Shown here piece by piece: positions 8,626 to 38,879 of a DNA stretch of 38,879 nt. Position numbers and translations under genes: made by a program. Source of the DNA: an uncultured Cytophagaceae bacterium. GTDB taxonomy: Bacteria > Bacteroidota > Bacteroidia > Cytophagales > Spirosomataceae. Positions within the stretch are counted from its first letter, which is position 1, and the number at the start of each line of letters is the position of its first letter. Below the pieces are notes generated by a model. That model was given only the letters and a program-made list of their open reading frames with translations. It was not told where the DNA came from and made no database searches. The stretch spans positions 1-38,879 of the forward strand of contig CAILUB010000002.1 of NCBI GenBank assembly GCA_903837305.1, written 5' to 3'.

Positions 8626-8826
8626 TTATTCCTTTGGAAAATCGTTATCCTTTTGGGGGGTGGCAAGTTGAATGGTGTAGTCGGGTTTATTCCCACCATT
8701 ATCCTTGGTGGGAAAAACGGCAACCTTTACTTCACCAAATACCGAAAGGTCAATAATGCCAGAGAGATAATCGTTGCCGTTCTTATCTTGCTTCTTCCAT
8801 AAAACACCGATCTGCTTTGACTTCAC
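8626..8826 (-). CDS. DUF736-like small protein
   Basis: IGVLWKKQDKNGNDYLSGIID..KPDYTI; SD AGGAGGT before the GTG start. Confidence 0.7.
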   Translation of the reverse strand: MKSKQIGVLWKKQDKNGNDYLSGIIDLSVFGEVKVAVFPTKDNGGNKPDYTIQLATPQKDNDFPKE

Positions 8827-8841
8827 TTTACACCTCCTGTT

Positions 8842-9564
8842 TTAGGCTGTTAATGCCAAAAGCTGATTATGGCATTTAACGTGTTTCTCAAGGGCTATGG
8901 GTGGCGGTGCTGTTTTAAGCGCTTCCGTACAAGCCATATAATAGGCAAAAGCGTTTCGGTCCGTAAATTCTTCATGGCTGGGGTGCAACCATTCGTCTTT
9001 GACGGTGGTTAATTGCCTAGGTGAGATGATGTTCTTGCCAAACATCAAACCCATTGCTTTAAAGGCTTCATCGTCCGTCATCGGTCGGCTTTTAAGCGTG
9101 TCAATGTCGGCTGCTATTTCCTTAAAGCGATAAATAGACTTGTAAAGGGTTGAAATGATCATCGTTTCAAGATCGTTCCACACAAGGCGTGAGTGCCTCC
9201 TCATCGCCACTATATCGCCCGATAAGGCAAGATTGGAACAAATGAACACCGATGCACCTGTGGCAATTCCGATAGCTATACTCTTATCAAGGCTGTTGCG
9301 GTACGCTACTGATAAAGCAACGTCAGAAGCCTCGCCTTTAAAAGAAAGTATTGCAAAAAGTTGGTTGCCTTGTCTTGCCAGTCCGTAAGTTTCAGAAGAA
9401 AGAACGTAGTCTTTGAGGATGTTACCGGATATTTCTATCACCCTGTTTGCCAAGTCGAAATGCGATACCGGAATGAACGTGTCGGTCTGCTCTGGGACAG
9501 TAATAAGATCGAGAGCGTCCCTCGTTACATATTCACCACCTCTTGCCATCATTAATCCATTCAT
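8842..9564 (-). CDS. DUF932-family protein
   Basis: PVSH, RNSLDKSIA, ASVFICSNLALSGD..RRH motifs; SD GGAGGT. Confidence 0.75.
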   Translation of the reverse strand: MNGLMMARGGEYVTRDALDLITVPEQTDTFIPVSHFDLANRVIEISGNILKDYVLSSETYGLARQGNQLFAILSFKGEASDVALSVAYRNSLDKSIAIGIATGASVFICSNLALSGDIVAMRRHSRLVWNDLETMIISTLYKSIYRFKEIAADIDTLKSRPMTDDEAFKAMGLMFGKNIISPRQLTTVKDEWLHPSHEEFTDRNAFAYYMACTEALKTAPPPIALEKHVKCHNQLLALTA

Positions 9565-9578
9565 AAAACACCTCCATT

Positions 9579-9755
9579 TTATTTGTGATCATCTGATATG
9601 CCGGAACGAGCAAACATCGGAAAAACGTGTTTCAATTTGTGGTGTTTGATGTATTTCTCAGCTTCTTCTTTCGTTTCAAACCAAATGGTATTACCTTTTT
9701 TATCCCTTATGAGCTGGCAAGTGGTGTAATTAAGTAGGGCAAATATTCTCAACAT
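9579..9755 (-). CDS. Small hypothetical protein, 58 aa (not in ORF track)
   Basis: MLRIFALLNY..WFETKEEAEKYI; SD GAGGTG. Confidence 0.65.
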   Translation of the reverse strand: MLRIFALLNYTTCQLIRDKKGNTIWFETKEEAEKYIKHHKLKHVFPMFARSGISDDHK

Positions 9756-9922
9756 TTTTCACCTCGCTTATGTATATCTTTCCACCAGGGAGGAGGAGGT
9801 ATTGGGTTTATGTTTTCATTCAAGTGCAGGAAAACCCACTTATCAAGCTTTTGTTGGCATTTTTTACATAGAGATTTATTGTTTTTTGTAAATTTTCCAC
9901 ATTGACAACATCTATTTTTCAT
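9749..9922 (-). CDS. Small Zn-binding protein, 57 aa (not in ORF track)
   Basis: MKNRCCQCGKF..LCKKCQQ..PIPPPPWW; SD GAGGTG. Confidence 0.65.
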   Translation of the reverse strand: MKNRCCQCGKFTKNNKSLCKKCQQKLDKWVFLHLNENINPIPPPPWWKDIHKRGEKC

Positions 9923-9953
9923 TGTTCACCTCGCTTTGTTTTTTAAAGGGCAA

Positions 9954-10124
9954 TTAATTTATAAGGTGCTTTAATTCGGTGGCGTATTTGTCGGCTGTGG
10001 CAACTAATTCGTTATATCCTGGGTGTTCTATTCTGCGGTGGTATGGAAAGGCGAATTGAAAATGGTGTATTTCAATACAAATTAGTAGAAGTTCTTTTCT
10101 AAGTAATAATATTTGGTCTGGCAT
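9954..10124 (-). CDS. Small hypothetical protein (start re-called at MPDQIL)
   Basis: TAATATG coupling to the upstream small gene. Confidence 0.55.
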   Translation of the reverse strand: MPDQILLLRKELLLICIEIHHFQFAFPYHRRIEHPGYNELVATADKYATELKHLIN

Positions 10125-10125
10125 A

Positions 10126-10266
10126 TTATTCGCCGTTATAGGCCAGTTTCTTACACTTCGGACAAGAAGCAATATGTCCACCTCCATATACTTTCAAAAC
10201 AACGAAAAGCGTTTTTCCGCAAGACAAGCATTTAACAAGTTTTTTGGTCCTGGCAGTAAGGCTCAT
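10126..10266 (-). CDS. Small Zn-ribbon protein, 46 aa (not in ORF track)
   Basis: MSLTARTKKLVKCLSCGKTLFVVLKVYGGGHIASCPKCKKLAYNGE. Confidence 0.7.
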   Translation of the reverse strand: MSLTARTKKLVKCLSCGKTLFVVLKVYGGGHIASCPKCKKLAYNGE

Positions 10267-10269
10267 AGC

Positions 10270-11025
10270 TTAATAAATTAATGGTCTTAAATTTCCTTTG
10301 TGATCGTAGCAGACGGCATCTTTGGGGTTTTTAATCAGTCGGTAATAGTTCGGATAAGGCATAAACAGAATTTTGTCTGATAGTTCGCACTGGGCTACTA
10401 TTTTAAAAATCATTTTCTTAATTTCGCCCTTTATGGTCTGGTATTCAGGGGTATTGTATTCGATATGTCTTTTGTACGGAGGGAAATTACGGGCTAACAC
10501 GATTAAATGTTTAGCGTTCTTGGGAGTCTTGAAATCCATTATCGGTTTCAGCTTCTTAGTGTAGAGTTCGCCTGTAGACATTCGCCTTTCAAGTTCCAGG
10601 TAAATTATCTTATCATCTATTTCCACAAAAGCATCGGGCGTATATCCTCCTAATCTAGGCTCGTGCTTAATGCTAAACCCTCTATTCCAATAAGCTGCAA
10701 ACATTGAGATTAAAACGTCTTGCTTCATGCTATCGTGTTCTTCCTTTAATTGTCCCTTTTCTCTTGTGTACTTTGGATCTATATCAAGTTTTCTATATAA
10801 AATTTTGGTCGGTCTGTAAAATTGTCTTGGTGTATGGCGATAATGGTCATATTTATCAAGTACGGGTTCAATAAGTTCCTGTTTCAAAAGTTTTCTAATA
10901 TATAACCTGGCATTCTTATCAATTCCCTCTATGGTCTTAGCTGTTGGACTGGCAATAACACTTAAATTGTTGGCATTTAAATATTGCAGTGTTCCAAATG
11001 CTTTTTTAACTTCTGTGATGTTCAT
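10270..11025 (-). CDS. Replication-relaxation (Replic_Relax / MOBC-like) protein 2
   Basis: wHTH-like N-terminus, EEHDSM, and TPDAFVEIDDKIIYLELER (D-x12-E-x-E). Confidence 0.75.
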   Translation of the reverse strand: MNITEVKKAFGTLQYLNANNLSVIASPTAKTIEGIDKNARLYIRKLLKQELIEPVLDKYDHYRHTPRQFYRPTKILYRKLDIDPKYTREKGQLKEEHDSMKQDVLISMFAAYWNRGFSIKHEPRLGGYTPDAFVEIDDKIIYLELERRMSTGELYTKKLKPIMDFKTPKNAKHLIVLARNFPPYKRHIEYNTPEYQTIKGEIKKMIFKIVAQCELSDKILFMPYPNYYRLIKNPKDAVCYDHKGNLRPLIY

Positions 11026-11028
11026 AAT

Positions 11029-11496
11029 TTACACATTAGCGTGATATTGATTTTGCGGAGCAAACTTTTTGCTATGCGCTTTAAAATGACATCTATCACA
11101 TAATAAAATTAAATTGTTTGGATTATTATTTGGAGTGCGTGTTTTTGATTTACCCATAAAATCTTCATGATGTAAAACAAGTTTTCTCTTTGTTTCTCCA
11201 CAATATTTACATTTATTCCCGTCTCGTTTATATACAGCTAAAACATTATCAAAACCATACGTTAATACAACCGGATAAGTTATATTACAATTTGTACTTT
11301 GTTTTAACTCCGTATTCCTTTTTAACAAATAATTTTTTGTTATTTGTTTTGCCTTTTCTTTGTTTGGACGATATTTCTTTTGATATTCATAATGGCATTT
11401 TTTGCAATGCCCTTGTCTAAAATACCTTTGTCCACTTCTAATTATATAGAATTTGTCTATTGCTTTTCTTTTTAGGCATTTTTTACAAATTGGCAT
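11029..11496 (-). CDS. HNH endonuclease with N-terminal Zn finger
   Basis: RDGNKCKYCG..LVLHHED..NNNPNNLILLCDRCHFKAH. Confidence 0.9.
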   Translation of the reverse strand: MPICKKCLKRKAIDKFYIIRSGQRYFRQGHCKKCHYEYQKKYRPNKEKAKQITKNYLLKRNTELKQSTNCNITYPVVLTYGFDNVLAVYKRDGNKCKYCGETKRKLVLHHEDFMGKSKTRTPNNNPNNLILLCDRCHFKAHSKKFAPQNQYHANV

Positions 11497-11784: not shown

Positions 11785-11920
11785 GGGCTGAAAACGGGCT
11801 GAAAATAGTTTCTTAAATGTTCTTTTATATAGAAAATTGTCTTATATGTTCTTAGCGGAATATTGTTTTGTTCCCGTAAGTTACGATTTTTAATATGCTT
11901 TGGAAATAAAGCTGTAAATA

Positions 11921-11974
11921 ACTTAAAATCCCTCGGAGCCTCGCTCTGTACGAGTTCGATTCTCGTCCCAGGCA
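11921..11974 (+). other. att core: 3' half of tRNA-Leu(UAA)
   Basis: Anticodon loop CTTAAAA, TCCCT, long variable arm CGGAGC/GCTCTG, T arm ACGAG-TTCGATT-CTCGT, acceptor strand CCCAGGC-A; no 5' half or D arm upstream. Confidence 0.9.
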
Positions 11975-11988
11975 TTACTTGTAAAATT

Positions 11989-12021
11989 AAGGGGTTATGG
12001 CCGATAGGCTTAACCCCTTTT
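11989..12021. terminator. Hairpin terminator between the att core and integrase
   Basis: AAGGGGTTA..TAACCCCTT followed by Ts. Confidence 0.7.
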
Positions 12022-12061
12022 ATATTGCTTTGGAAATTGCTGGGCTGAAAATGGGCTGAAA

Positions 12062-13030
12062 TCAGAAAAAATTGTGCCCTAAGAACTGCAAATACCGCTG
12101 TGTCGTTGCCAGATTTGTATGGCCTAAAAGGTTCATGATCTCAATCAATGGTCTGCCTTCCGTTGCCAGTTTTGAAGCATATCTGTGGCGTAAATTATGC
12201 CAATTCCATTTAGTAGGAAACTCGCATAATTTGACAGCCTGTTCAAGAAAACGAGGGTAATCATCCCATTCATAGAATACCTTGCCCTTTCCGGTTATTC
12301 CGTTTAAGCAAGGCGGTAAAGGTACTATTCTGGCTGTCAAATTGCTGTTTTTGGCCTTTCTAGTATAAAGGATAACCTTATCATCCCGAATATGGTCATA
12401 TGACAGCCGTACAGCCTCGTTTATGCGACAACCGCTCTCTGATACAAAATCGAACAGTAAACGTTGTCTAGGGCTCAAAACTTCACGTACAAAGTCAATC
12501 TGTGATTGAGGAGGAATGTATTTTGCGTTTTGGTCAATAGAATACATTTCAATCCCGATAACAGGGTTTTTAATATCAAGTTCTTTTCGCCTTATTCCGT
12601 AAAAGAAAAGTGCCTTTAATAACCTGATCATGGAATTGACTTTAAAATAGCCCCTATTGGCCTTTTTAAGCCGTTTAGCTTCCAATTCTACAAGGTCAAT
12701 AATATCTTTCTTTCTAATCCTTGAAACCATTATATCCGTACCGAGAAAATCGATCAGCTTTTTCATATACCTTTTGTTTTCCTTGTAGTAATCAAGCGAC
12801 TTAGTATCTTTGATAAAATCGAGCCGGTCATTTACAAGGTCCAAGAGCTTCATGTCGGTACGAATATTGATAATCTTGTTTTGCAAATCCCGCAGATATT
12901 CCCTTTCAGCGTCCTGGGCTTGCTTCTTGGTGAGATACACGGATTTTGAACAATACTTAATCCCGTTAAAACTTCCGAGATAACGCCATCTTTCGCCGCG
13001 CTTTTTAAGCTTCCGTTTCTGGGCTGGCAC
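12062..13030 (-). CDS. int: Tyrosine integrase
   Basis: GCRINEA (R), HNLRH (HxxR), LLGH, TQRY (Y); SD AGGAGGT before the GTG start. Confidence 0.95.
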   Translation of the reverse strand: MPAQKRKLKKRGERWRYLGSFNGIKYCSKSVYLTKKQAQDAEREYLRDLQNKIINIRTDMKLLDLVNDRLDFIKDTKSLDYYKENKRYMKKLIDFLGTDIMVSRIRKKDIIDLVELEAKRLKKANRGYFKVNSMIRLLKALFFYGIRRKELDIKNPVIGIEMYSIDQNAKYIPPQSQIDFVREVLSPRQRLLFDFVSESGCRINEAVRLSYDHIRDDKVILYTRKAKNSNLTARIVPLPPCLNGITGKGKVFYEWDDYPRFLEQAVKLCEFPTKWNWHNLRHRYASKLATEGRPLIEIMNLLGHTNLATTQRYLQFLGHNFF

Positions 13031-13167
13031 AGTCCACCTCCTTGAATTTTAATGTGCAATATTTGAATTTTTGTTAAACTGTAATTTCCTAAATGGATGG
13101 TGGTTAGGTTTGAAAAGCAAAAGGTGTTTAAAAAATTCAAGGAAGGATGGTGTGCTTGTGGTTCGTT

Positions 13168-13386
13168 ATGGACTATCATATCATCAGTTCCCAGGAGTTA
13201 GCCGGTAAGCTTAAGATGTCGTTAAAAACGATGTATAAGCTATTAAACGGCGGACAGATACCTGGGAGCAAAAAGGTCGGTGGACTTTGGTACATTGATC
13301 TGAACATCTTTGAAGCCTCCTTTTCAAAACCCACTATCAAGGTTAAGGCAGACGGCGGCTCTATGAACCGCCATAATCTGCAATAA
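13168..13386 (+). CDS. xis: Excisionase-like HTH protein
   Basis: SSQELAGKLKMSLKTMYKLLNGGQIPGSKKVGGLWYI; divergent from the integrase. Confidence 0.8.
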   Translation: MDYHIISSQELAGKLKMSLKTMYKLLNGGQIPGSKKVGGLWYIDLNIFEASFSKPTIKVKADGGSMNRHNLQ

Positions 13387-13391
13387 CCACT

Positions 13392-13414
13392 GGGGCGGAT
13401 ATTCCGCCCCTTTT
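13392..13414. terminator. Intrinsic terminator
   Basis: GGGGCGGA-tat-TCCGCCCC-TTTT. Confidence 0.8.
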
Positions 13415-13577
13415 ACTTTTTACATTTATGTTTCTTTTTAGGTGCTTTAAAATTGTCTGTAAATGCTTTCCCCCAACCCGTACAAAGTTGCCTGACTGCT
13501 TCCTTTCCAAATCCTTTTGCTACTTTTCCTGTTGCTTTAATTCCTGAATACTTTAGAAAATCACTTGTCAAACTCAT
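13413..13577 (-). CDS. Small cationic peptide, 54 aa (not in ORF track)
   Basis: MSLTSDFLKYSGIKATGKVAKGFGKEAVRQLCTGWGKAFTDNFKAPKKKHKCKK; SD AAGGAG. Confidence 0.55.
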   Translation of the reverse strand: MSLTSDFLKYSGIKATGKVAKGFGKEAVRQLCTGWGKAFTDNFKAPKKKHKCKK

Positions 13578-14956: not shown

Positions 14957-16399
14957 ATGGATAACACGTTATATTACGGTGATAATCTTAATATTCTTCG
15001 ACACAAAGTAAAAGACGAATCTATTGATCTGATTTATCTTGATCCCCCATTTAATAGCAAAACCGATTATAACATCCTTTTTAAAGAACCAACCGGCGAG
15101 CTTTCTAAATCTCAAATAATGGCCTTTGAAGATACCTGGCATTGGAGCGAGGAATCAGAAAAAGCCTTTGAAGAAATATTAATGAGCCATTCAGAAGTTG
15201 CCGAAATGATGAGAGCATTTAGGGAATTTTTAAAAGACAACGATGTTATGGCTTATTTGACTATGATGTGTGTTAGGCTGCTTGAGTTGCAAAGAGTGTT
15301 AAAAACAACCGGTTCAATCTATTTGCATTGCGACCCTACAGCCAGCCATTATTTAAAAATTCTAATGGATGCCATTTTCGGAAAGAAGAATTTTAAGAAT
15401 GAAATAATTTGGCATTATCGTAAGTGGCCATCGGGTAAAAGACAGTTTCAGCGGAATCATGACATTGTTTTATTTTATGCTAAAAGTGATTCGGCTGATC
15501 GAATTTTTAAACAAATTGATTTTATGGAAAGAACTGAATCAACTTTAAAGAGATTTGGAAAATCAAAGATCGTATCCGGACATGATGAAAACGGAAATAG
15601 ACTTCCCTCACAAGTGGAGGATGTAGAATCGTTGGGAGTACCGAGGGATGATGTTTGGGACATTGGCAGAGTACCGCCCATAAAGCAGTTATTTCCGACT
15701 CAAAAACCGCAACAATTATTATCGAGAATAATTAGAGCAAGCAGTAATGAAGGCGATGTTATTCTTGACCCATTTTGCGGTTGTGGAACAACCATTGTTG
15801 AAGCGCAAAACCTAAAAAGAATTTGGCAGGGAATAGATATAACATTCCTTTCGATAAGTTTAATTAAAAAACGGTTAAAAGATATTTATAATGTAACCGC
15901 TCCGAAAGATTATCAAATATTTGGTGAGCCTACTGACCTACCTGGCGCTTTAGCCTTAAAGGATATTAACAAACATCAATTCCAATGGTGGGCTGTGTCT
16001 TTAGTAGATGGGATACCATACAAAGGCGGTAAAAAAGGTGCAGATACTGGGATTGACGGATATATTTACTTTGCGGACGAAGAAAAATACAAGAAAGCAA
16101 TTATTTCTGTCAAAAGCGGTCATGTTGGAGTTAAAGATATTAGAGAGTTGAATGATGTTGTCGATAGGGAAAAAGCGGAAATAGGGGTATTTATAACCCT
16201 TGAATCGTCAACAGAGCCAATGAGAAAAGAAGCCATTGGCAAAGGATTTTATTATTCGACAAAATTAAACAAGAATTTTCCTAAAATTCAAATATTAACA
16301 ATAGAAGAATTGTTTGATAACAGGAGACCGAACATTCCGCAAGTTGTTTCAATGTATAAGAAAGCGGAAAAATCGGTAGATCAAGGGATGTTAATTTAA
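14957..16399 (+). CDS. Amino (N6-A/N4-C) DNA methyltransferase with C-terminal Mrr-like nuclease-fold domain
   Basis: YLDPPF, FPTQKP, DPFCGCGTT (beta class); C-terminal ADTGIDG..IISVKSG. Confidence 0.9.
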   Translation: MDNTLYYGDNLNILRHKVKDESIDLIYLDPPFNSKTDYNILFKEPTGELSKSQIMAFEDTWHWSEESEKAFEEILMSHSEVAEMMRAFREFLKDNDVMAYLTMMCVRLLELQRVLKTTGSIYLHCDPTASHYLKILMDAIFGKKNFKNEIIWHYRKWPSGKRQFQRNHDIVLFYAKSDSADRIFKQIDFMERTESTLKRFGKSKIVSGHDENGNRLPSQVEDVESLGVPRDDVWDIGRVPPIKQLFPTQKPQQLLSRIIRASSNEGDVILDPFCGCGTTIVEAQNLKRIWQGIDITFLSISLIKKRLKDIYNVTAPKDYQIFGEPTDLPGALALKDINKHQFQWWAVSLVDGIPYKGGKKGADTGIDGYIYFADEEKYKKAIISVKSGHVGVKDIRELNDVVDREKAEIGVFITLESSTEPMRKEAIGKGFYYSTKLNKNFPKIQILTIEELFDNRRPNIPQVVSMYKKAEKSVDQGMLI

Positions 16400-16528: not shown

Positions 16529-16693
16529 TTATTGTTTCGGCAATTCTTTTTGCCTTGTAAAATAATAAGTAAATGCCATTCCAGCGAGCATTACAAAATC
16601 TTTAGCATCGACTTTTCCTGTAAATGTTAAAGCAACTAAGGCGATAGCCATCAAGATAAAAACGATTTTGCTCGCGCTTGATAGGATGTTCAT
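16529..16693 (-). CDS. Putative holin, 54 aa (not in ORF track)
   Basis: MNILSSASKIVFILMAIALVALTFTGKVDAKDFVMLAGMAFTYYFTRQK..; two TM segments, directly after the endolysin. Confidence 0.7.
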   Translation of the reverse strand: MNILSSASKIVFILMAIALVALTFTGKVDAKDFVMLAGMAFTYYFTRQKELPKQ

Positions 16694-16694
16694 A

Positions 16695-17863: not shown

Positions 17864-17927
17864 AGTTTTATATTAATGAATAATATTTGCCTGACACCAA
17901 GCGGTGTTAGGGTATAAGACGTTTGTC

Positions 17928-18074: not shown

Positions 18075-18077
18075 AGC

Positions 18078-18902: not shown

Positions 18903-18903
18903 A

Positions 18904-19191: not shown

Positions 19192-19208
19192 ATTTTTATT
19201 TTTATAGA

Positions 19209-20018: not shown

Positions 20019-20035
20019 ATAATAAAATTTAATAA

Positions 20036-30629: not shown

Positions 30630-30820
30630 ATAAATTTATCTTGTGGCATTGGTGGCAATTTAGAATCAGGCATGGCGTTGGTTACGTTGCAATCACCGTC
30701 TATAATAACAATCATCTTTTTCTTTAATAACCCTTCCACTTCTTCTCTTTCTATCTGCGTAATATCCCCGGTAACATACGAGCCATTGCCTTTAATGAAC
30801 TGAACAATAACTTTTTCCAT
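30551..30820 (-). CDS. Post-capsid small protein with C-terminal C2H2 zinc finger
   Basis: Start re-called at MEKVIVQF; FICPICGNEYKQEHGLKAHKKKAH. Confidence 0.75.
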   Translation of the reverse strand: MEKVIVQFIKGNGSYVTGDITQIEREEVEGLLKKKMIVIIDGDCNVTNAMPDSKLPPMPQDKFICPICGNEYKQEHGLKAHKKKAHGIE

Positions 30821-30869
30821 AATATTTTGCTTATTCTTGCCTCCCAAAAAGAGAGGCAAAGAAAACAAA

Positions 30870-31922
30870 CTATTTAACTGCTTGTAATTGGAATGCTGCT
30901 TCCGGTAAGGTGTAAACACCGTCAATAGCTTCAGCAACAACCAATTCAATTTGGAGCTTGCTGATAATCTTATCAGTGTCCATGAACATATTGTCACCGT
31001 CTTTGATCCAGTAATAGAAAGGATCAAGGAACCACAATTCTGTTTCGTTGGCTGATGTGCCAAGATTGGCTGGAATGTCTTCACATTCAATAACCGGTCT
31101 ACCAAATATAGTTGATGTGTTGACATCAAAGATAGGCTGTTTGACCTCATCTTTGATTTTGCGCAAGGCTTTCATGCCCATAGCAGAAGTCATCCAAATG
31201 GCATTGCTTCTGTATTGTTCTTTTAAGCCATAGAAAACGTCAACTATATCATCATAGGCCAAATTAGCGCCGTCCTGGGCGTCTACGTTGTGGCCGGTCA
31301 TACCTCTAAAGCCTGTTGGCTGTGAGGAACCTGAACCTACGACAAATGCTGATTCTTCTTGTCTGACAATAGCGCGTGAGCACAAATTTGAAATGTACTG
31401 CACGATATTGAAAGCGGAAGTATTTAACATTTGGCGAGGCATTAAGACTCTGGCAGCCAAGTAGTAGTCAGACAAATCTTGTTTCTGAATGGTTGGGTTT
31501 GATTCGGTTATTTCTGTGTTTTCACCTACCCAATAAGCGGTAACGCCAGTACCCTCTTTAGGCAACTGGAAAGGACCAGCTAAATTGAAAGAGAAAGCAA
31601 CTTTACGCATTTTAGCGATCTTGTCTTTCTTTTCCATTATCTCGTTGGCCAATTCGGTTGGGATGGTATATCCGAAAGAACCTGTAGCACTGGTAACAGC
31701 CTTTTCCTCTACTTTGCCATTGACTAAATCTTTGACAAATTGGGCGGCTTTTTCTATTTTTGTTTCTTTGGTGTCTTCGGTCTTGGCTTCCGGTAAGGTA
31801 GCTTTTAACTCGTTGACGATTTCGGTTTTTAATTCAGGTAAAACTGATTTTACACTGTCGGAGAGCAAACCTTTAAGCTCTTCCATAGAGATCTCTTTGA
31901 TCTCTTGTTTCTTTTCGTCCAT
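30870..31922 (-). CDS. Major capsid protein, HK97 fold
   Basis: GYTIPTELANEI, AYWVGE, GSGSSQPTG, YRSNAIW, TIFGRPV. Confidence 0.95.
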   Translation of the reverse strand: MDEKKQEIKEISMEELKGLLSDSVKSVLPELKTEIVNELKATLPEAKTEDTKETKIEKAAQFVKDLVNGKVEEKAVTSATGSFGYTIPTELANEIMEKKDKIAKMRKVAFSFNLAGPFQLPKEGTGVTAYWVGENTEITESNPTIQKQDLSDYYLAARVLMPRQMLNTSAFNIVQYISNLCSRAIVRQEESAFVVGSGSSQPTGFRGMTGHNVDAQDGANLAYDDIVDVFYGLKEQYRSNAIWMTSAMGMKALRKIKDEVKQPIFDVNTSTIFGRPVIECEDIPANLGTSANETELWFLDPFYYWIKDGDNMFMDTDKIISKLQIELVVAEAIDGVYTLPEAAFQLQAVK

Positions 31923-31932
31923 ATTTTATAAT

Positions 31933-32700
31933 TTATTTTGTTATGCGAAGCAGAAATTCTGCTCCTTTGTCGATAATCTTTGCAGCTTGCCTTATGCGGA
32001 TGATTTTCTTTACATCCGTCATAGCTTCGACCTTTGCCCCCTTTTTATCGAGGGACTTGATATATTTTGAATATCGATAATGTATTGGAAATTCCTTGAC
32101 TGTCTTGTCTGCGTAATAAACTTTTAATATCTTTTTCTTGCTATCAATTTTTTGAAAGATTATTTTGCTTGGTGCTTCTTTCTTATCCCCCTTAACTGCT
32201 ATTAATTCAGTTTCCGGATTCATACCGGCTAATACCGGGCTCCACTCGTAAAGCTTGATCTTCTTAATTACTCTGATTTCTTCTTCGCCTTCCATTTCCC
32301 AAGAATACTCTTGAATTCCGAAACCTATTGAAAATTCGTCCATAATGCCGAATTTAATATCGCTGAATGCTTCCTTTCCTCTCTGCGTTTCCATATTAAA
32401 TTGGCCTTTAACGTATAAACCTTTTTCATCTTCCCTGGCTTCTAACGTCTTGGCGATAGGCTGGTCCCAATTGTGTGACCAAACGCCTTTAGGCAGTTTC
32501 TTTTTTAAACTGTCTGCAAATGCTCCCGGCAGGATCTTGTCACCGCCCAGGTCAACATTGTTGAATATAGAAACGTAAGCCTCAATGATACCTTTCTCTG
32601 CATCAACCTTAAATTCCGAAATAGGAACGATTTTATAAATCTTTTCATCTTCGGATTTCTGGCTTAATTTCTTTTTTATTTCCTTAATTGTTTTAGACAT
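31933..32700 (-). CDS. HK97-family prohead protease
   Basis: YVSIFNNVDLGGDKILPGAF, WSHNW, FSIGF, LYEWSPV. Confidence 0.95.
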   Translation of the reverse strand: MSKTIKEIKKKLSQKSEDEKIYKIVPISEFKVDAEKGIIEAYVSIFNNVDLGGDKILPGAFADSLKKKLPKGVWSHNWDQPIAKTLEAREDEKGLYVKGQFNMETQRGKEAFSDIKFGIMDEFSIGFGIQEYSWEMEGEEEIRVIKKIKLYEWSPVLAGMNPETELIAVKGDKKEAPSKIIFQKIDSKKKILKVYYADKTVKEFPIHYRYSKYIKSLDKKGAKVEAMTDVKKIIRIRQAAKIIDKGAEFLLRITK

Positions 32701-32723
32701 ATTGTTGAATGAGAATTAAATAT

Positions 32724-34778
32724 TTAAAGGGGTGTATAGTCGCATTTACAGTTAGGATGAACGGGTATTTGTCCCTCGATGCTCTTGACGTTCCATTTAT
32801 CGCTTGATTTAACAACGCACTCCTCGCAAGCGCCAGGGCTCAATAACCATTTAACGTCTTCAAATCCGTAATATTCATACATCTTGCGGTGTGCTTCGGT
32901 TACGCCTCTGGCTGTTTCGGTTCGGGCGATCATCTCGGCTCTGTAGCCTTTAGCGGAGGTAAAGACTTCTTCAACTCTTGCCTTTAATTCCCCTAAACTC
33001 TCGCCGTTCGCAATCCCAGCTTTAAGGGCTTTCTCAAAGGCTTCTATTGTAGTGCTATTTATACTCTCGCCTGTTTTGGCGGCTACATCAGCTAACCAAG
33101 CTTTTATAAAGTCCATATCGATAATGGATGGCTCGCCTATCAACTCAGACGCTTGTTTTGTACCTTGCATGACTGTTTGATATAGCAATGGATTTATAAT
33201 ATCGATTGTTGCTTTTAATTCATTATGGGCGTTTATTCCATAATCAGCAGCCAAATCCTTTTTACCTTCCTCCAAGGCGGTCAAAAATCTCTGTTCCTGC
33301 TTCTCAAAGAAGTCTGTAAAGGTTTTTTGCCATAATCCCTCTAATCCTGCTTCTTCGTTCATTCTTGACTTATAGAAAGCATCGATCTGATCATCTGATA
33401 ATCCTTTCTTTTCTGGAACTATCTTAAAAACTATCTTTTTCTTTTCAATAAAGGCGTCAAAAGATTTATCTACAGCCTTTTGACCGATATTTTTCAATCT
33501 TACATTCCTGTTCATGATTCTTTTTTTGATATATTTTTGGGTCTTTAAATCAACGTCCAAAACATCTTTAGCTTGAAGCTCAATGGCTGATTTCTTTGGG
33601 GCTGGGGGATTATTGCCTATCAATGGCATATTTGACATACCCATATAGATTTGATCACCACCATTTACCGGTTCCAAGCCTTCTTCGGCGCGGATTTCGT
33701 TTGTAGTCTTCCATTTGTTCCAAGACGCTGTTTTTCTGTTGGTTTCAGCTTCTTCATCTTTTTGTGCCAAAGGTTCATACCACAACCATAGGTCATCACC
33801 GTATCTTGGGACCAAGAATTCATTTAACTGCTCAAAATATTTGGTAGCCAAAGGCTCCAATGTCCATTTGGCAAAGATATATTCTGATGTGCTAGCCGAT
33901 GCCCTGGTAGCGTCGTTATAGCCAAGCATAGTCTTTGGTACGCCGAATATACCGGCTATTTCATCCCTGTTTAGTTCTCTGGCCATTATAAATTCAAGGT
34001 CTTTAGGTGGTATCATGGCAGGAGTAAACTTCAAACCGCCCTCTAAAAGCATTACTTCATAGGCGTTTGCGTACCCCTGATACTTGTCTTTCATTTCCTT
34101 TTTAAGTCTTTTATAATCTCTATCAGTCAATGTTTTTTCACTCTCCATAAAGCCCGATGGCCTGGCTCCATTCTCAAGCAGTTTAGTATTGTGCTGTCCA
34201 ATATAATCGTTATGCTTGGCCGGTGTTCTGGCTGCTTCAACAACTCCCAAGCCTTTATCTGGATTGCTAGGATTATAATTCTTAAGGAAAATAACCTCGT
34301 CCTTGTCATAGGCATGAGTAGTCTGGCCGATCCTGTATTCATATCCGATCACGTTATTTTGTTTGTCTTTCTTAACGGTCAAATATTCAGGTCTTAATAC
34401 AAAAAGATTATTCGGCTGTCTGCCTCCCTTGCCTCCATCAAGCAACCAGGGCGAAGCGCCGAAAAGATCCAAGTAAGTTATGGATAATTTTATAAAATCA
34501 AATTTGGTTGTGTTCGGATTGAATTTGTAAAGCAGGTCCAATAATTCATGTTCCAATATTTCTTCTACTTCACCGTTCTTTTTGAGCTTGTAAAGCTTAA
34601 AGTCTATGGCTCCCAATGCGTTAGAACGTAAGTCGATACAGCGATAGACCCAGCCGGTATAAAAATCAAGCGCGTCATTCTTGGTAATAATCGATTGTCC
34701 GTATCCGTTGTTAATAAACAGCGAAAGAGGGGGAATGTTCCCCTTAAAGATATTTTTAAATTTTGAATATATACTCAT
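32724..34778 (-). CDS. HK97 portal protein fused to a Mu gpF/SPP1 gp7-like domain
   Basis: Portal motifs NGARPSG, IAGIFGVP, TTNEIRAEEGLEPVNGGD; C-terminal RAEMIARTE..HPNCKC. Confidence 0.9.
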   Translation of the reverse strand: MSIYSKFKNIFKGNIPPLSLFINNGYGQSIITKNDALDFYTGWVYRCIDLRSNALGAIDFKLYKLKKNGEVEEILEHELLDLLYKFNPNTTKFDFIKLSITYLDLFGASPWLLDGGKGGRQPNNLFVLRPEYLTVKKDKQNNVIGYEYRIGQTTHAYDKDEVIFLKNYNPSNPDKGLGVVEAARTPAKHNDYIGQHNTKLLENGARPSGFMESEKTLTDRDYKRLKKEMKDKYQGYANAYEVMLLEGGLKFTPAMIPPKDLEFIMARELNRDEIAGIFGVPKTMLGYNDATRASASTSEYIFAKWTLEPLATKYFEQLNEFLVPRYGDDLWLWYEPLAQKDEEAETNRKTASWNKWKTTNEIRAEEGLEPVNGGDQIYMGMSNMPLIGNNPPAPKKSAIELQAKDVLDVDLKTQKYIKKRIMNRNVRLKNIGQKAVDKSFDAFIEKKKIVFKIVPEKKGLSDDQIDAFYKSRMNEEAGLEGLWQKTFTDFFEKQEQRFLTALEEGKKDLAADYGINAHNELKATIDIINPLLYQTVMQGTKQASELIGEPSIIDMDFIKAWLADVAAKTGESINSTTIEAFEKALKAGIANGESLGELKARVEEVFTSAKGYRAEMIARTETARGVTEAHRKMYEYYGFEDVKWLLSPGACEECVVKSSDKWNVKSIEGQIPVHPNCKCDYTPL

Positions 34779-36169
34779 AAACTTCTAATTGATGGCTTAT
34801 CGTATGTTTTAGCGTAGAATGTTAATGTTAAGGCGTCCCAGTTATCAGGGCTCTCTATGCCCCTGGCTCTCATCTCGTCCTTGCTTTCCATTTGGATCTT
34901 GCCGTCGCCTTTTCTTGACAGTTTCCATTTAATCTCTTTGGCTTCTTCAAAGTCTTCTCCATAAACTCTGCCTTCTTCGTACTTGATCCAGTCGTGGCAA
35001 GCAAAATTAGCTTCTGCTTTGGCGTTTACGAATCTTTCTTTGTCCTCTGGGCTTCCTGCTTCCTGGCAGGCATTGACGTAATATCCTTGCTCGGCTAAGG
35101 CGTCCGTTACTCCTCCGCCCATTCCGGTATCATCAAGAAATACATCGTCCCAGTCTATTTTTAAATCCTTAACGCACCTTATAGTCTCGGCTGCTACAAC
35201 CATAAGATCTTTGCATTTGAATTTCTTAAAAATGTAGGCTCCTTTCTCTGTTCTGATCACCATTGATGTCCAGTTACCGCCTCTGGCAATATCGACGCCC
35301 AATTTTTTCAGCTTTTTAATGACTGGCTTTTCGGTGGTGAACATCGCCGCGTATTCTTCTGTCTTGAATAAGCGGTAATATCCGTTGCGATCCATTTCAT
35401 CTTCATCAGGGAATTCGCACCGGTAAAGAATACTGGCTAAAGGTTTTTTAAGTGCTTTGTTTAAAAAAGGTTCATTGTATCTGCCTTCTTTCAAGGCTTG
35501 GAAACAGTCTATATAAATTCTGTAATAATCGTTGTCGTACCAGCTTAGTTTGAAATGGTTGTTATAAAACGGATTGCCGATCTTGATATAGCAGGTATTC
35601 TCACCTTTACCGGCAAGCATCCTGTAAATGGTGGCTTCGTGTTCATCCGGTATCAGTCCACTTTCATCTTGAATTACCTTTCGTCCGCCCTCTCCCATGA
35701 CAGCCTCAACGCCCTTGCTTGAGTTTCCGGCTTCTACGGAAAATGCCGCTATGCCCCCTCCATTTCTCAATACGATCCTTTCCTTGCTTTCCTCTTGTTT
35801 GAGGCGATCCAGTTTTGTATTCTTTTCAAGCTGTAAATAAAAAAGAACGTTGTCAGATAAATGCTCGATGAAATAGCGCATTATCTTTTTAGCCTGTTCT
35901 TTCTTCGGGGCTACAACTGGCAGAAGTTCCGCTTTAATGCAGGTGCAAACGATACATCCTAAAGCGATAAAAAGAGATTTGCCGTATTGGGTGGTTGTTA
36001 CTATCTCAATGTGCTTGGCTGGCTCAAATACTATTGCATGAAAGATTGCTAACTGGCCTTCGGTTACTGCAAGATTTCCCGGCTTCCCCTCTATGGTAAA
36101 AAGACTAAGAAGGTAAAGGCATACCCTCTTCTGATCCTCTGGTATTATTGGAAGTTCCGGTTTTAACAT
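34775..36169 (-). CDS. terL: Terminase large subunit
   Basis: TTQYGKS, VIQDES, IGNP, LGVDIARGG, LDDTGMGGGV, SPDNWDAL. Confidence 0.92.
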   Translation of the reverse strand: MLKPELPIIPEDQKRVCLYLLSLFTIEGKPGNLAVTEGQLAIFHAIVFEPAKHIEIVTTTQYGKSLFIALGCIVCTCIKAELLPVVAPKKEQAKKIMRYFIEHLSDNVLFYLQLEKNTKLDRLKQEESKERIVLRNGGGIAAFSVEAGNSSKGVEAVMGEGGRKVIQDESGLIPDEHEATIYRMLAGKGENTCYIKIGNPFYNNHFKLSWYDNDYYRIYIDCFQALKEGRYNEPFLNKALKKPLASILYRCEFPDEDEMDRNGYYRLFKTEEYAAMFTTEKPVIKKLKKLGVDIARGGNWTSMVIRTEKGAYIFKKFKCKDLMVVAAETIRCVKDLKIDWDDVFLDDTGMGGGVTDALAEQGYYVNACQEAGSPEDKERFVNAKAEANFACHDWIKYEEGRVYGEDFEEAKEIKWKLSRKGDGKIQMESKDEMRARGIESPDNWDALTLTFYAKTYDKPSIRSL

Positions 36170-36527
36170 ATTCGATTAAATCTTTAACGCCCTGTCTCAC
36201 TTCGTCCATTTCCCTTGTGGCAGTATTTTCTATCTCATGTTTAGGCGTGAATTCGTCTTTTTTCTTTCTCTCTAAATACCAGGTAGCAATGTTTGGATTT
36301 TTCAAATTATCTATAATTGTTTGCCTGGCCTGTAATACAGGCGTTTCTTTTAAAGCCTCTTTTCGCTCAACAAATTCGGGATGTCTATTTTGATAATCAT
36401 AAAGCGTTTGATGACTAATATTAGCCATTAAGCAAGCTTCTTTATCGCTGCAACCCATTGCAAAAGCTTCTTCAAGTTTCTTTAGTGTCAATCCTTGTAT
36501 TTTTTCTGGTCTACCTACTTTTGCCAT
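36105..36527 (-). CDS. terS: Terminase small subunit
   Basis: MAKVGRP, HTH, WYLERKKKDEF; upstream of terL. Confidence 0.8.
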   Translation of the reverse strand: MAKVGRPEKIQGLTLKKLEEAFAMGCSDKEACLMANISHQTLYDYQNRHPEFVERKEALKETPVLQARQTIIDNLKNPNIATWYLERKKKDEFTPKHEIENTATREMDEVRQGVKDLIEYVKTGTSNNTRGSEEGMPLPS

Positions 36528-36528
36528 A

Positions 36529-36894
36529 TTATTCAATTACTACGATCTTTAAGTCTTTAATGGGCTTATTCTGAAAAGTCTTTCGTTGCATGATCTGTTT
36601 CAATTCCTTTTCCAGTTTTAAGATAATAGAAGTTATTTCAGTTTCATATTTCTTCACTCTGATAAGGTCGGTAGCTTTGACGCCCAAAATATTTCTTAGC
36701 TTCGGATCGTTCAAAGGTATAGACTCCCTGGCCATTGGCTTGGTAATGACTGTTTCACCTGTAGCATATGTTATAGCCACTAAAATGACGCCTATAATGT
36801 AAAAGGTGTGTTTGTTTAAAAAAATACCACTTAAGGTCTTTTCCCTTTCGTAGTCTACTTTGATTATTAAATTTTTGCGGATTTTGTCTTTCAT
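36529..36894 (-). CDS. Hypothetical protein
   Basis: 121 aa, TAATATG-coupled to terS. Confidence 0.6.
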   Translation of the reverse strand: MKDKIRKNLIIKVDYEREKTLSGIFLNKHTFYIIGVILVAITYATGETVITKPMARESIPLNDPKLRNILGVKATDLIRVKKYETEITSIILKLEKELKQIMQRKTFQNKPIKDLKIVVIE

Positions 36895-37082
36895 ACGACA
36901 ATAAAGCGATTTAAGTCGCTTCTTCAGTATTGAAGAAACTAGCTATATTTCTCCAATGATTATTTAATTGGTTATTTAATGCTCAAAACATAGGGTAAGA
37001 CACCTATGTTGAGCTTGTTGATACAATGTCCCTAACGAACATTCTTTCACTTTTATTACTTTCTAATTTAATTATAACATAT

Positions 37083-37289
37083 CTATTCATCCCTGCTAAA
37101 AAGCCATTCCATACCGTCTTCAAAGTGCTTAAGTCTTAATTTATAATGTTTATATATTGGCTTACATTCGGATAAAAGTCTTATTTGATACCTTGCTTGG
37201 CTGTAAGACAAACCTAAAATCAACGCTATTTGTTTTGTGTTTTTTCCTTTTATTAAAAGTTTTTCAATCCTCCTGTGTATAAGTATCAT
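37083..37289 (-). CDS. Small HTH DNA-binding protein
   Basis: GKNTKQIALILGLSYSQARYQI. Confidence 0.65.
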   Translation of the reverse strand: MILIHRRIEKLLIKGKNTKQIALILGLSYSQARYQIRLLSECKPIYKHYKLRLKHFEDGMEWLFSRDE

Positions 37290-37345
37290 ATATAAATTAT
37301 TTGTCTTTTGGGAGGGGGGCAGAGTTTTTAGGCTCTGCCCTGGGT

Positions 37346-38143
37346 TTAGTTTTTGCTCATTGCGAGCAGGCTGGCAAAGTGTTGGAAGTCTTTATCTTCT
37401 CCTTTTGTTGCCATTACAAAGGCGAATTGGGACAGTTTGTTTACCAGATATTGACTTCTCTTTTCGTCGTGATGAACGATTAAGATATGGTCAAATCTTC
37501 TTAGGAGGTTCGTTTGGGCGGAAGTTAGATTGCCGACTGTCAGTGATATGCAAACAGGAAAGAAAGAATGATGTCTGGCTGCGTTTATCGGGTCTTCAAA
37601 TAATACTGCTACATTTCCTTTTGTGTCTACATTGTTAAGATTGTAAAGGTGGTCGTGCTTGTACTGTGAGTAATAGAAATATTCCTTTTTTTTCGGGTCG
37701 TAGATACAGTAGCCGACAGGCGTTCCGTCAATACTTCTAATCCTGAAAGCTATCTTACCAGCACTTTTACCCTTATGCTCAACGACTTTCCCGATTTCTA
37801 ATTGTTTGGCAACTTCTTCGGTGATGCCAAGTTCTTCAAGTTCCTTGCAGTAAGCAAGTTTGTAGGTTGGTAATGGTCTTTGCGGTTTGGGTTGTTCGCT
37901 TAAAAACGTTTTCTTGATCCAAGATGCTGCGTCTCTGGGTGTCATTCCCTTTTTATTAACAAGGAAGTTAATCACATTGCCGTAGTCTTTCCCTGTGGGG
38001 TTAGTGTAGCGGTTTTTAGAGGTTACTATAAAGCCATCGCCTTTTAATTCTCCATTTGCCTGAGTGAACGGAATGTTAAGAATATTTAAAAGGTCTTCAA
38101 ACTTTACTGCTTCCGCTATCGCCTTAAAGTCTAGAAATTCCAT
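37346..38143 (-). CDS. Degenerate DnaG-like primase protein
   Basis: GNVINFL..GMTPRDAASWI, KIAFRIRSIDGTPVGY, HLYNLN, VLFED (TOPRIM-like). Confidence 0.65.
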   Translation of the reverse strand: MEFLDFKAIAEAVKFEDLLNILNIPFTQANGELKGDGFIVTSKNRYTNPTGKDYGNVINFLVNKKGMTPRDAASWIKKTFLSEQPKPQRPLPTYKLAYCKELEELGITEEVAKQLEIGKVVEHKGKSAGKIAFRIRSIDGTPVGYCIYDPKKKEYFYYSQYKHDHLYNLNNVDTKGNVAVLFEDPINAARHHSFFPVCISLTVGNLTSAQTNLLRRFDHILIVHHDEKRSQYLVNKLSQFAFVMATKGEDKDFQHFASLLAMSKN

Positions 38144-38152
38144 TGTTTCCCC

Positions 38153-38317
38153 CTAAAGAATGATTGTGCCAAAGATTGTTTCAGTCTTGCCGTTGTTGTA
38201 TTTGTCAAGAATTTCAGTCCAAGAAAGATCTGCGGCACTGTTTAACTTGATATGCGGTCTTGGCTTTACCGATACGGTGTCTTTAGTTTTGTTCTTTTTC
38301 TTCCGTTTTTTTGACAT
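38153..38317 (-). CDS. Small basic protein, 54 aa (not in ORF track)
   Basis: MSKKRKKKNKTK...; SD AGGAGG. Confidence 0.6.
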   Translation of the reverse strand: MSKKRKKKNKTKDTVSVKPRPHIKLNSAADLSWTEILDKYNNGKTETIFGTIIL

Positions 38318-38325
38318 AATCCCTC

Positions 38326-38484
38326 CTAGAGTGATTTTCTGATATTGCGTGGATACTGAAAATTCTCATCTACAAAGATGAAGTCTCCACATTCGCAGAT
38401 AAACACATAGCCAGAGCCGAAAGTCGTGTACCATTTGACCTTGCGTTTACAGCTTCCGCATTCAACTGTTTTTCCGTTTTCCAT
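38326..38484 (-). CDS. Small Zn-ribbon protein, 52 aa (not in ORF track)
   Basis: VECGSCKRKVKW..FICECGD; SD AGGAGG. Confidence 0.7.
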   Translation of the reverse strand: MENGKTVECGSCKRKVKWYTTFGSGYVFICECGDFIFVDENFQYPRNIRKSL

Positions 38485-38732
38485 CACTCCCTCCTTTTAA
38501 ATCCGTCCACACTATGAAATTCGTTTAAACAGTCAGGGCATTTTCCGTTAAAAAAGGTGAGCATATTGAGGGTTTTGTCGGTAGCAAACCAGCTTGTATG
38601 TCCGCAATCGGGACAAACGATAAGGAAATTGTATTGTGCTTTTTCTTTACAAATAGAGCAGATATAGATACGCTGTTTGCCGACAAACATTTCTCCTTGA
38701 TACAGAACTCCACAAAGTCCGCACGCGTCCAT
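38484..38732 (-). CDS. Cys-rich double Zn-ribbon protein
   Basis: Four CxxC pairs; SD AGGAGGT before the ATG at 38732. Confidence 0.7.
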   Translation of the reverse strand: MDACGLCGVLYQGEMFVGKQRIYICSICKEKAQYNFLIVCPDCGHTSWFATDKTLNMLTFFNGKCPDCLNEFHSVDGFKRRE

Positions 38733-38879
38733 AATCACCTCCTAAATTATTATTTGAATGTGCTTTTAATGAAGGATCAATAGGCTCATAAATTCCAGAA
38801 GTATCATTGTACTCAAAATCAGAAATAACTGAAATTGCACTAATCAATCTGAAATGTGTTGCACCAGCAGGAGCATTTA

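What the first reader, a model, noticed from the sequence alone, without database searches (positions are those of the whole stretch)
8626..38750. Two translation-initiation styles: a possible two-host lifestyle
Seen: strong SD sites (mostly AGGAGG or GAGGTG) precede int, DUF932, DUF736, ORFs 9755, 9922 and 13577, the MTase, and the primase block 38143-38732. Virion, lysis and recombination genes lack SD and use AT-rich leaders or TAATATG coupling (7891, 10122, 16525, 16691, 18900, 25110, 36525). Inferred: the SD-less backbone, 3D-domain protein and DnaA-box promoters look Patescibacteria-phage-like to me, while the integration module looks like that of a conventional anaerobe such as Desulfobacterota. 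Known: Patescibacteria are epibionts and commonly encode a T4SS. Speculative model: virions are made in the epibiont and the genome is passed to, and integrates in, its partner cell. Plain mosaicism or a recent host jump is the simpler alternative.
Basis: inference. Interest (0 to 1): 0.8.

Follow-up and report, generated by a model that had tools for sequence, protein, structure and literature searches.

The report
Phage shuttling between epibiont and host
This 39-kb phage genome belongs to a family whose virion genes carry no Shine-Dalgarno sites and resemble those of Patescibacteria phages, while its integration and DNA-transfer genes mostly carry such sites and relatives sit integrated in ordinary anaerobic bacteria, so it likely alternates between a Patescibacteria epibiont and its host cell.

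Summary
The split is real: 12 of 63 listed starts have strong SD sites, in clusters; 0 of 29 virion/lysis genes do. The contig is probably mis-binned in a Bacteroidota-like MAG. Its att core is identical to tRNA-Leu(TAA) of four genomes of the Syntrophorhabdus family, and a close relative with SD-less tail genes lies integrated at that tRNA beside an aro operon. The same virion module occurs, without the SD set, as a provirus in a Falkowbacteria-like chromosome. Twelve other viral contigs (GC 33-55%, different heads) repeat the interleaved layout: SD-led integrase, primase, DUF932/DUF736/ArdC; a TrwB-fold ATPase operon; two relaxase-like genes; SD-less early and virion genes. GC3 of the two classes co-varies (r=0.96, 8 genomes), so this is no recent mosaic, and terminases interleave with those of SD-less phages lacking the SD set. 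Best reading (0.5): a two-host shuttle, lytic in Patescibacteria, integrated in the partner, moved by conjugation-like transfer. No complete copy was found in a Patescibacteria chromosome; transfer, expression and virion source are untested. A single-host phage keeping old SD-less late genes remains possible (0.27).

The parts
449..1672 (-). TrwB-fold coupling-protein-like ATPase, no membrane anchor
   Evidence: Pfam DUF87/AAA_10; model pLDDT 87, best fold match TrwB E 3e-13, TM 0.65; in all 13 composite contigs and in host-integrated elements
1636..2906 (-). Conserved 244-aa protein (SD-led) and membrane protein of the ATPase operon
   Evidence: SD -8.7; homologues in the same place in relatives
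2830..3507 (-). Relaxase-like protein RR1 heading the ATPase operon; SD in some relatives, none here
   Evidence: Pfam Replic_Relax E 0.0023, below cut-off; 10 composites
3689..8435 (-). SD-less early operon: NinB, SSB-like, annealing-protein-like, 3D-like, small regulator; promoter-like site at 8492-8465
8626..9922 (-). SD-led block: DUF736, DUF932, two small ORFs (ArdC, RadC or an RHH-like gene in relatives)
   Evidence: SD -11 to -14; Pfam weak hits; relatives
10270..11025 (-). Relaxase-like protein RR2 (winged helix + PD-(D/E)XK nuclease fold), SD-less in 9 of 10 composites
11029..11496 (-). HNH endonuclease, SD-less; promoter-like site at 11784-11757
11785..12060 (.). attP: core 11921-11977 identical to the 3' part of tRNA-Leu(TAA), arm-type repeats at 11785/11796 and 12042/12053
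   Evidence: contig X2 record 14 spans it
12062..13030 (-). Tyrosine integrase, SD-led
13147..13577 (.). Excisionase-like HTH_17 gene (13147-13386, +) and SD-led ORF 13413-13577 (-)
   Evidence: xis 74% identical to that of integrated relative L110
13654..14673 (-). NinG-like nuclease and small SD-less ORFs
14957..16399 (+). SD-led DNA methyltransferase fused to an Mrr-like domain
16529..37289 (-). SD-less lysis (M23 peptidase, holin-like), tail, connector, glycosyltransferases, HK97-type head, portal, terminase
   Evidence: relatives in Patescibacteria-named contigs
37346..38732 (-). SD-led primase-like gene and three small ORFs
   Evidence: PHROG primase E 3e-13; SD -9 to -12; absent from 12 virion relatives lacking the SD set

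Best explanation
The window is the attP (non-integrated) form of a member of an old family of phage/mobilisable-element hybrids that likely alternates between two cells: it is predicted to make virions in an SD-independent Patescibacteria epibiont and to be passed by conjugation-like transfer to an attached conventional anaerobe, here likely a Syntrophorhabdus relative, whose tRNA-Leu(TAA) its att core matches. Shown: the two leader classes, their conservation by gene family, integrated relatives in conventional chromosomes, and the same virion module in a Falkowbacteria-like chromosome without the SD set. Inferred steps: (1) virions infect Patescibacteria, where SD-less early, head, tail and lysis genes run; (2) the SD-less relaxase-like RR2, next to att, nicks the circle and uses the epibiont's own T4SS, which mostly lacks a relaxase, to deliver it to the partner; (3) there the SD-led entry genes (DUF932, DUF736, ArdC in relatives, MTase, primase, integrase) establish and integrate it; (4) after excision RR1, the membrane proteins and the TrwB-fold ATPase export it to an attached epibiont. 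Loss of the virion block would give the smaller integrated elements seen in the same hosts.
For: att core identical over 56-57 nt in 4 genomes of one family, which keep the canonical anti-SD tail (20 of 69 genomes). L110: SD-less tail genes 54-65% identical to the window's, xis 74%, int, intact tRNA-Leu(TAA), then an aro operon colinear with two genomes of that family at 64-72% nt. L152: like arrangement beside cobalamin/methylmalonyl-CoA mutase genes. G075 capsid protein identical to one on an 80-kb Desulfobacteraceae-named contig. G001: same head-tail module, own SD-less integrase, flank NrdR whose 9 other organism-named hits among the best 120 are all Falkowbacteria/Patescibacteria. 7 of 8 viral contigs with a 40-50% identical integrase and 5 of 5 new primase contigs share the layout; the eighth is a T7-like phage with SD throughout. 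Virion blocks of 7 composites: 0 of 115 starts at -7 or better, against 64 of 168 host genes and 25 of 36 in that T7-like phage. AAT directly before ATG: 61 of 282 composite, 90 of 358 virion-relative, 5 of 195 host genes. GC3 of the two classes r=0.96 over 8 genomes. Terminases of composites need at least 5 label changes among SD-set-free phages; AU test rejects window+G075+G076 as one clade, p=6e-70. ATPase fold = TrwB. Patescibacteria T4SS clusters mostly lack a relaxase and MOBC is their commonest relaxase class, 58 of 109 (PMC12102498, passages); anti-SD found in only 48% of Parcubacteria (PMC9297842, passages).
Against: No complete composite was found in a Patescibacteria chromosome; L176 has only the SD-led xis+int in an unnamed SD-less 673-kb contig. 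The integration host reads SD-less genes too: 58 of 168 called host ORFs are weaker than -3 (crude starts). Hosts of the G080/G081-type integrases include Ignavibacteria, themselves SD-poor (30 of 38), where one host would do. In the capsid tree the three HK97-type composites fall in one supported clade, sister to the Patescibacteria-named ones, as a single old host jump predicts. Most early genes have their best hits in other composites, not in SD-set-free phages. The promoter signature with a 16-nt spacer is composite-specific, not shared with those phages. Only 4 of 7 organism-labelled capsid hits point to Patescibacteria, and MAG labels can be mis-bins. The ESM Atlas placed the G001 NrdR nearest clusters of other phyla. 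RR1/RR2 stay below the Pfam cut-off; no oriT was identified. No Patescibacteria partner of Syntrophorhabdus turned up in the literature searched.
Confidence: 0.5

Rival explanations
1. Single-host temperate phage of conventional anaerobes: an ancestor joined a Patescibacteria-phage virion module to an integrative mobilisable element once, long ago; late and early genes stay SD-less because AU-rich leaders work in the host, and the relaxase/ATPase module spreads it between cells of that host.
For: All integrated composites found lie in conventional chromosomes; host has many SD-weak genes; capsid clade and promoter signature are family-specific; single-host phages with a MobC-like relaxase operon are known (PMC3357382, passages).
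Against: No SD gain in 115 virion genes across GC 33-55% while a phage with the same integrase family has SD on 25 of 36; terminases and glycosyltransferases are repeatedly nearest to SD-set-free phages, up to 72% identical; no lipoprotein spanin-like ORF in the window for a diderm host (simple motif scan).
Confidence: 0.27
2. One-way spill-over or hitch-hiking: a Patescibacteria phage lineage carries an integrative element of partner bacteria as a passenger; the element gains delivery to partner cells, where integrated copies are dead ends for the phage and decay to virion-free islands.
For: Virion-free elements with the same integrase, ATPase and DUF932 are common in the hosts, some keeping SD-less remnants (L049, L316).
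Against: The two gene sets are interleaved in 4-5 blocks in fixed order, share transcription units and GC3; xis and an export operon are kept; integrated copies have intact virion genes (L110, G075).
Confidence: 0.15
3. Two hosts, but the SD-independent one is a Bacteroidota/Ignavibacteria cell (as the bin suggests), not a Patescibacterium.
For: The bin is Bacteroidota-like and SD-poor; one capsid hit and one integrase hit are named Bacteroidota.
Against: No DNA shared with the other 368 contigs and no att match in the bin; AAT-before-ATG is 8% in the bin against 22-25% in composites and virion relatives; the provirus with a readable flank is Falkowbacteria-like.
Confidence: 0.06
4. Chimeric assembly of two co-occurring elements.
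For: Low depth; no listed contig spans the whole; loose ends at 7747 and 8507 in one run; no listed piece bridges 37289-37346.
Against: Pieces of both classes at 99%+ identity in runs of three studies; bridges across int-NinG, HNH-att-int and 9922-10124; 12 independent contigs with the same order.
Confidence: 0.02

Closest known systems
Bacillus phage 0305phi8-36 DNA-translocation operon (also SPO1, Gamma, GBSV1); PMC3357382, passages read
   Same: Tailed phage carrying a CloDF13-MobC-like relaxase, an anchorless coupling ATPase and separate membrane proteins
   Different: One host lineage; no split of translation signals; operon dispensable in the lab; here two relaxase-like genes, tRNA integration in another phylum than the virion module's relatives. 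The window ATPase has no match among 50,697 GenBank phage records.
MOBC mobilisable elements (CloDF13 MobB/MobC) and tRNA-targeting integrative mobilisable elements (family traits recalled; MobC link from PMC3357382)
   Same: Relaxase-like wHTH + PD-(D/E)XK protein, own coupling protein, no mating channel, tyrosine integrase/xis, entry genes such as ArdC
   Different: Carries a complete, intact phage morphogenesis and lysis set; oriT and nicking untested
Phages co-targeted by CPR and non-CPR CRISPR spacers; PMC10746230, abstract and two sections read
   Same: Suggests phages that interact with both an epibiont and a partner lineage
   Different: Spacer evidence only, Saccharibacteria/Gracilibacteria/Absconditabacteria; concerns genetic code, not initiation signals; no integration in the partner or transfer machinery in the sections read
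Patescibacteria proviruses (G001 in a Falkowbacteria-like contig; capsid hits in Falkowbacteria and Pacebacteria MAGs)
   Same: Same HK97-type head-tail module, 45-59% identity, same SD-less leaders
   Different: No primase, ATPase, relaxase-like, DUF932 or ArdC genes; unrelated SD-less integrase or none
Phage-plasmids (recalled)
   Same: Hybrid of phage and plasmid-type genes; SD-less ParB in two relatives
   Different: Integrates at tRNA genes; hybrid parts trace to two phyla

Membership tests
Tailed temperate phage (HK97-type siphovirus) | Terminase, portal, protease, capsid, tail tube, tape measure, lysis genes intact | tested here: met
Tailed temperate phage (HK97-type siphovirus) | Integrase with att core matching a host tRNA; integrated relatives | tested here: met
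Tailed temperate phage (HK97-type siphovirus) | Virions made in, and infecting, the integration host | not testable with these tools
   no RNA holder listed; needs induction
Patescibacteria phage | Virion genes nearest to proviruses in Patescibacteria chromosomes | tested here: met
Patescibacteria phage | This element itself linked to a Patescibacteria cell (provirus, spacer, Hi-C) | tested here: inconclusive
   none found; Patescibacteria genomes could not be searched as a group; L176 partial and unnamed
MOBC relaxase | N-terminal winged helix plus PD-(D/E)XK nuclease domain with D...E-x-E motif | tested here: met
   invariant H97, D131, E144, E146; folds
MOBC relaxase | Profile score over the Replic_Relax cut-off | tested here: not met
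   18.5-21.6 bits against 25.3; window RR2 no hit
MOBC relaxase | Cleavage at a cognate oriT | not testable with these tools
   no conserved oriT seen by eye upstream of RR1/RR2
Type IV coupling protein | TrwB-like ATPase fold with Walker motifs beside a relaxase | tested here: met
   HerA, VirB4 and Cag-beta score only slightly lower
Type IV coupling protein | N-terminal membrane anchor | tested here: not met
   absent in the alignment; adjacent membrane proteins may substitute
Integrative conjugative element (ICE) | Own mating-pair channel (VirB4 plus membrane and pilus genes) | tested here: not met
   no such operon in the window or in 7 whole composites
Phage satellite (PICI-type) | Lacks a full virion gene set | tested here: not met
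   complete set present

The most novel reading that the evidence does not exclude
A widespread family of phages with an obligate or regular two-phylum life cycle: lytic in Patescibacteria epibionts, lysogenic in the cells those epibionts parasitise, crossing the contact by hijacking the relaxase-less Patescibacteria T4SS with one relaxase and returning with a second relaxase and its own coupling ATPase, with Shine-Dalgarno presence or absence acting as the switch that allots each gene to one host. Each genome would then name an epibiont-host pair.
Probability: 0.45. Interest if true: 0.95.

Novelty: categorically new. Interest (0 to 1): 0.86.

Why it matters
If the shuttle reading holds, it is a virus life cycle spanning two bacterial phyla, a first natural DNA substrate for the Patescibacteria T4SS, and a route for gene flow between epibionts and hosts. 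It would also make a hard open question testable from sequence: the att core names the partner lineage (here the Syntrophorhabdus family; Desulfobacteraceae and Ignavibacteria for relatives) and the virion module points to the Patescibacteria group. Even under the single-host rival it is an unreported family of phage/mobilisable-element hybrids that holds two initiation styles in one genome over long times. It also warns that such contigs are mis-binned and mislead host prediction.

Tried and rejected
Bin as host: rejected. Single-protein scans of viral contigs with the integrase and DUF932 found nothing; the integrase alignment did. Window terminase in 69 genomes of the att-matching family: 1 weak hit. 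Primase in 301 sampled genomes of that phylum: 1 hit, a virion-free island. RR2 profile in 401 sampled genomes: 0 hits at 1e-8, uninformative because no positive control was in view and homologues were seen in two family genomes by other routes. No CRISPR-spacer-like match to window 1-19500 was recognised in 69 family genomes (only 4 candidates scored per genome; 19500-38879 not searched). DnaA boxes and the 3D-like gene as Patescibacteria markers: rejected. Second, SD-less integrases in Ignavibacteria-type islands are not related to the one in L176, so a 'one integrase per host' idea was dropped. Relatives of the G080 capsid: nearest (72%) SD-less, more distant ones mixed; no host names, so not used. 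RR1 versus RR2 profile comparison weak (E 0.008). Atlas search with the capsid gave no host. No RNA holder listed. Rfam: nothing credible. The scan's earlier findings: nothing. Ten paper searches showed no description of this family; subscription papers and supplements were not seen.
Full report
What the window is. The window is a whole contig (G000:C2), the longest of 369 in a MAG with 16 type IX secretion C-terminal domains, i.e. Bacteroidota-like. It shares no DNA with the other contigs and the bin's tRNA-Leu(TAA) does not match its att core, so it is probably mis-binned. It encodes a full HK97-type head, tail and lysis set, early recombination genes, a tyrosine integrase and xis, a primase-like gene, an MTase-Mrr fusion, two relaxase-like proteins and a HerA/TrwB-type ATPase. 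Pieces at 99%+ identity lie in lake-water runs (30 of 30 bins in each half for X1, possibly the source) and in two sediment studies (16-21 of 30 bins); listed contigs bridge int-NinG, HNH-att-int and 9922-10124; none listed bridges the primase junction.

The observation. 12 of 63 listed starts pair with the anti-SD at -8 kcal/mol or better (background 2.5%), clustered (p=0.001); 0 of 29 virion/lysis genes do; all seven TAATATG couplings are real (first pass, which had two wrong starts).

The SD side. The att core (11921-11977) is flanked by arm-type repeats on both sides, so this is attP. An exact 54-nt scan of 185,579 species genomes gave 4 matches, one titled Syntrophorhabdus sp., all in one family and each a tRNA-Leu(TAA) (three intact, one cut by a contig end); I call it the Syntrophorhabdus family from that title. 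20 of 69 genomes of the family show the canonical anti-SD 16S end. Organism-named integrase hits among the best 120 of 258 are Bacteroidota, Desulfurivibrionaceae, Deltaproteobacteria and two Ignavibacteria. Family genomes carry tRNA-integrated, SD-led islands with a related integrase, ATPase, membrane proteins and DUF932 but no virion genes.

The SD-less side. 7 of 119 capsid hits carry an organism label: Falkowbacteria, Pacebacteria, Patescibacteria group, 'bacterium' (G001), Bacteroidia, Clostridiales, Desulfobacteraceae. G001 is a provirus with the same head-tail order (45-58% for the main proteins) and an unrelated SD-less integrase; the nine other organism-named hits of its flanking NrdR are all Falkowbacteria or Patescibacteria, best 83%, though the ESM Atlas listed clusters of other phyla first. 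Loci of this capsid clade are SD-poor throughout, and 12 larger contigs lack primase, ATPase, relaxase-like, DUF932 and ArdC genes.

It is a family. An integrase alignment found 24 viral loci, 8 at 40-50% identity over the full length (the other 16 are weak or short). Seven of the 8 repeat the window's order: att, SD-led int/xis, SD-less lysis/tail/head/terminase, SD-led primase, ATPase operon with RR1, SD-less early genes, SD-led DUF736/DUF932/ArdC block, SD-less RR2. Two have the window's head type, five have other types; GC spans 33-55%. The eighth is a T7-like phage with SD nearly throughout. SD status follows the gene family. Virion blocks of the seven: 0 of 115 starts at -7 or better; host genes 64 of 168; the T7-like phage 25 of 36 (my own simple ORF caller, which favours nearby SD starts). 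AAT directly before ATG marks 22% of composite and 25% of virion-relative genes but 3% of host genes. GC3 of the two classes co-varies from 0.27 to 0.76 (r=0.96, n=8, not corrected for kinship). This rules out a recent mosaic.

Integrated copies. Of 80 metagenome loci returned, 39 long enough were surveyed; most are virion-free islands or short, and two show tail genes, int, an intact tRNA and host genes on one contig. L110 sits at tRNA-Leu(TAA) beside aroB/aroA and neighbours, colinear with two Syntrophorhabdus-family genomes. L152 sits at tRNA-Leu(TAG) beside cobA, a methylmalonyl-CoA mutase subunit and meaB, and has an abrupt early-gene/tail joint that may be an assembly fault. G075's capsid protein is identical to one on an 80-kb Desulfobacteraceae-named contig. 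So Patescibacteria-type virion genes do lie inside conventional chromosomes.

Continued exchange. In the capsid tree the three HK97-type composites are within one clade (95/99) sister to the clade with the Patescibacteria-named rows, which fits one origin. Their terminases do not follow: the window's groups with G001-G003 (54-57%), G076's with three SD-set-free loci at 72%, G075's with four others; monophyly is rejected (some comparison loci are fragments). The window's two glycosyltransferases also match SD-set-free phages best (55%, 63%). Swapping with that pool is easiest if composites pass through the same cells.

Transfer machinery. The ATPase model (pLDDT 87) matches TrwB best (E 3e-13, TM 0.65), with HerA and VirB4 close behind. 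RR2 is a winged helix plus PD-(D/E)XK domain with an invariant D...ExE motif, the MOBC plan, but stays under the Pfam cut-off. Relatives carry SD-led ArdC (Pfam ArdcN in 3 of 3 tested, 2 over cut-off), a protein reported to act in the recipient of conjugation (PMC7213743, abstract start in a search listing); the window lacks it. Patescibacteria T4SS clusters mostly lack relaxases, and MOBC is the commonest class found (PMC12102498, passages). From this I infer RR2-driven export from the epibiont, SD-led establishment and integration in the partner, and RR1/ATPase-driven return. All four steps are inference.

Against. No whole composite was seen in a Patescibacteria chromosome, and I could not search that phylum as a set. 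The host has many SD-weak genes; Ignavibacteria hosts of some relatives are SD-poor. Early genes and a promoter type with a 16-nt spacer (18 of 38 extended -10 sites, against 1 of 12 in virion relatives and 1 of 8 in host DNA) are family-specific. The 3D-like gene is nearest to chromosomal genes of the Syntrophorhabdus family (69-74% over about 100 aa).

Comparison and verdict. Nearest precedents are Bacillus phage 0305phi8-36 with its MobC-like operon (PMC3357382, passages) and spacer-based dual targeting of CPR phages (PMC10746230, abstract and sections 8-9). Also consulted without finding this system: PMC13059738 (abstract), PMC9723584, PMC12647753, PMC12911398 and bioRxiv 10.64898/2025.12.20.690322 (passages). 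Ten searches showed no description; supplements and subscription papers were not seen. The family and its two-lineage anatomy are shown; the two-host cycle is the best explanation at 0.5.

Noticed in passing
window 8492-8465, 11784-11757, 14893-14866 (minus strand): The three best promoter-like sites all have TTG(A)-type -35, a 16-nt spacer and an extended TG -10; 18 of 38 such sites in 8 composites have 16 nt, unlike virion relatives or host DNA.
   Followed up: partly
window 5153-5701; L312:9462-9968, L313:9454-10026, L314:9019-9573: 3D-like secreted protein gene has 69-74% identical chromosomal homologues in a few Syntrophorhabdus-family genomes, in different contexts: gene flow between element and integration host.
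   Followed up: partly
L176:9607-10960: SD-led xis and integrase of this family inside an SD-less 673-kb contig next to dprA and an SD-less XerC-like gene; host unnamed, looks Patescibacteria-like to me.
   Followed up: partly
L049 (G065:C29) and L316 (G046:C23): Virion-free relatives in Syntrophorhabdus-family MAGs keep SD-less early genes and RR2 between SD-led blocks: possible decayed composites.
   Followed up: partly
L128, L131, L132, L143, L167: Islands in Ignavibacteria-like contigs carry two integrase/xis pairs, one SD-led and one SD-less.
   Followed up: partly
L305-L311: tRNA-Leu(TAA) is an integration hot spot in the Syntrophorhabdus family, with satellite-like islands of 2-14 kb.
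   Followed up: partly
window 27958-30620: Two glycosyltransferases and an FkbM methyltransferase between capsid and head-tail adaptor genes, possibly virion or surface modification.
   Followed up: no
window 17711-17863: 50-aa gene matching only the C-terminal end of anaerobic ribonucleotide reductase NrdD.
   Followed up: no
window 1-222 and 38647-38879: Both ends cut genes; relatives have only about 300 bp between ATPase and primase, so the unassembled gap likely holds cargo.
   Followed up: no
G000:C118:1182-1622: Five tRNA-Leu genes with five different anticodons in a 1.8-kb contig of the bin.
   Followed up: no
L027:269-3093, 11920-14613: Tandem family of paralogous genes with a shared N-terminal motif beside the G001 provirus.
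   Followed up: no
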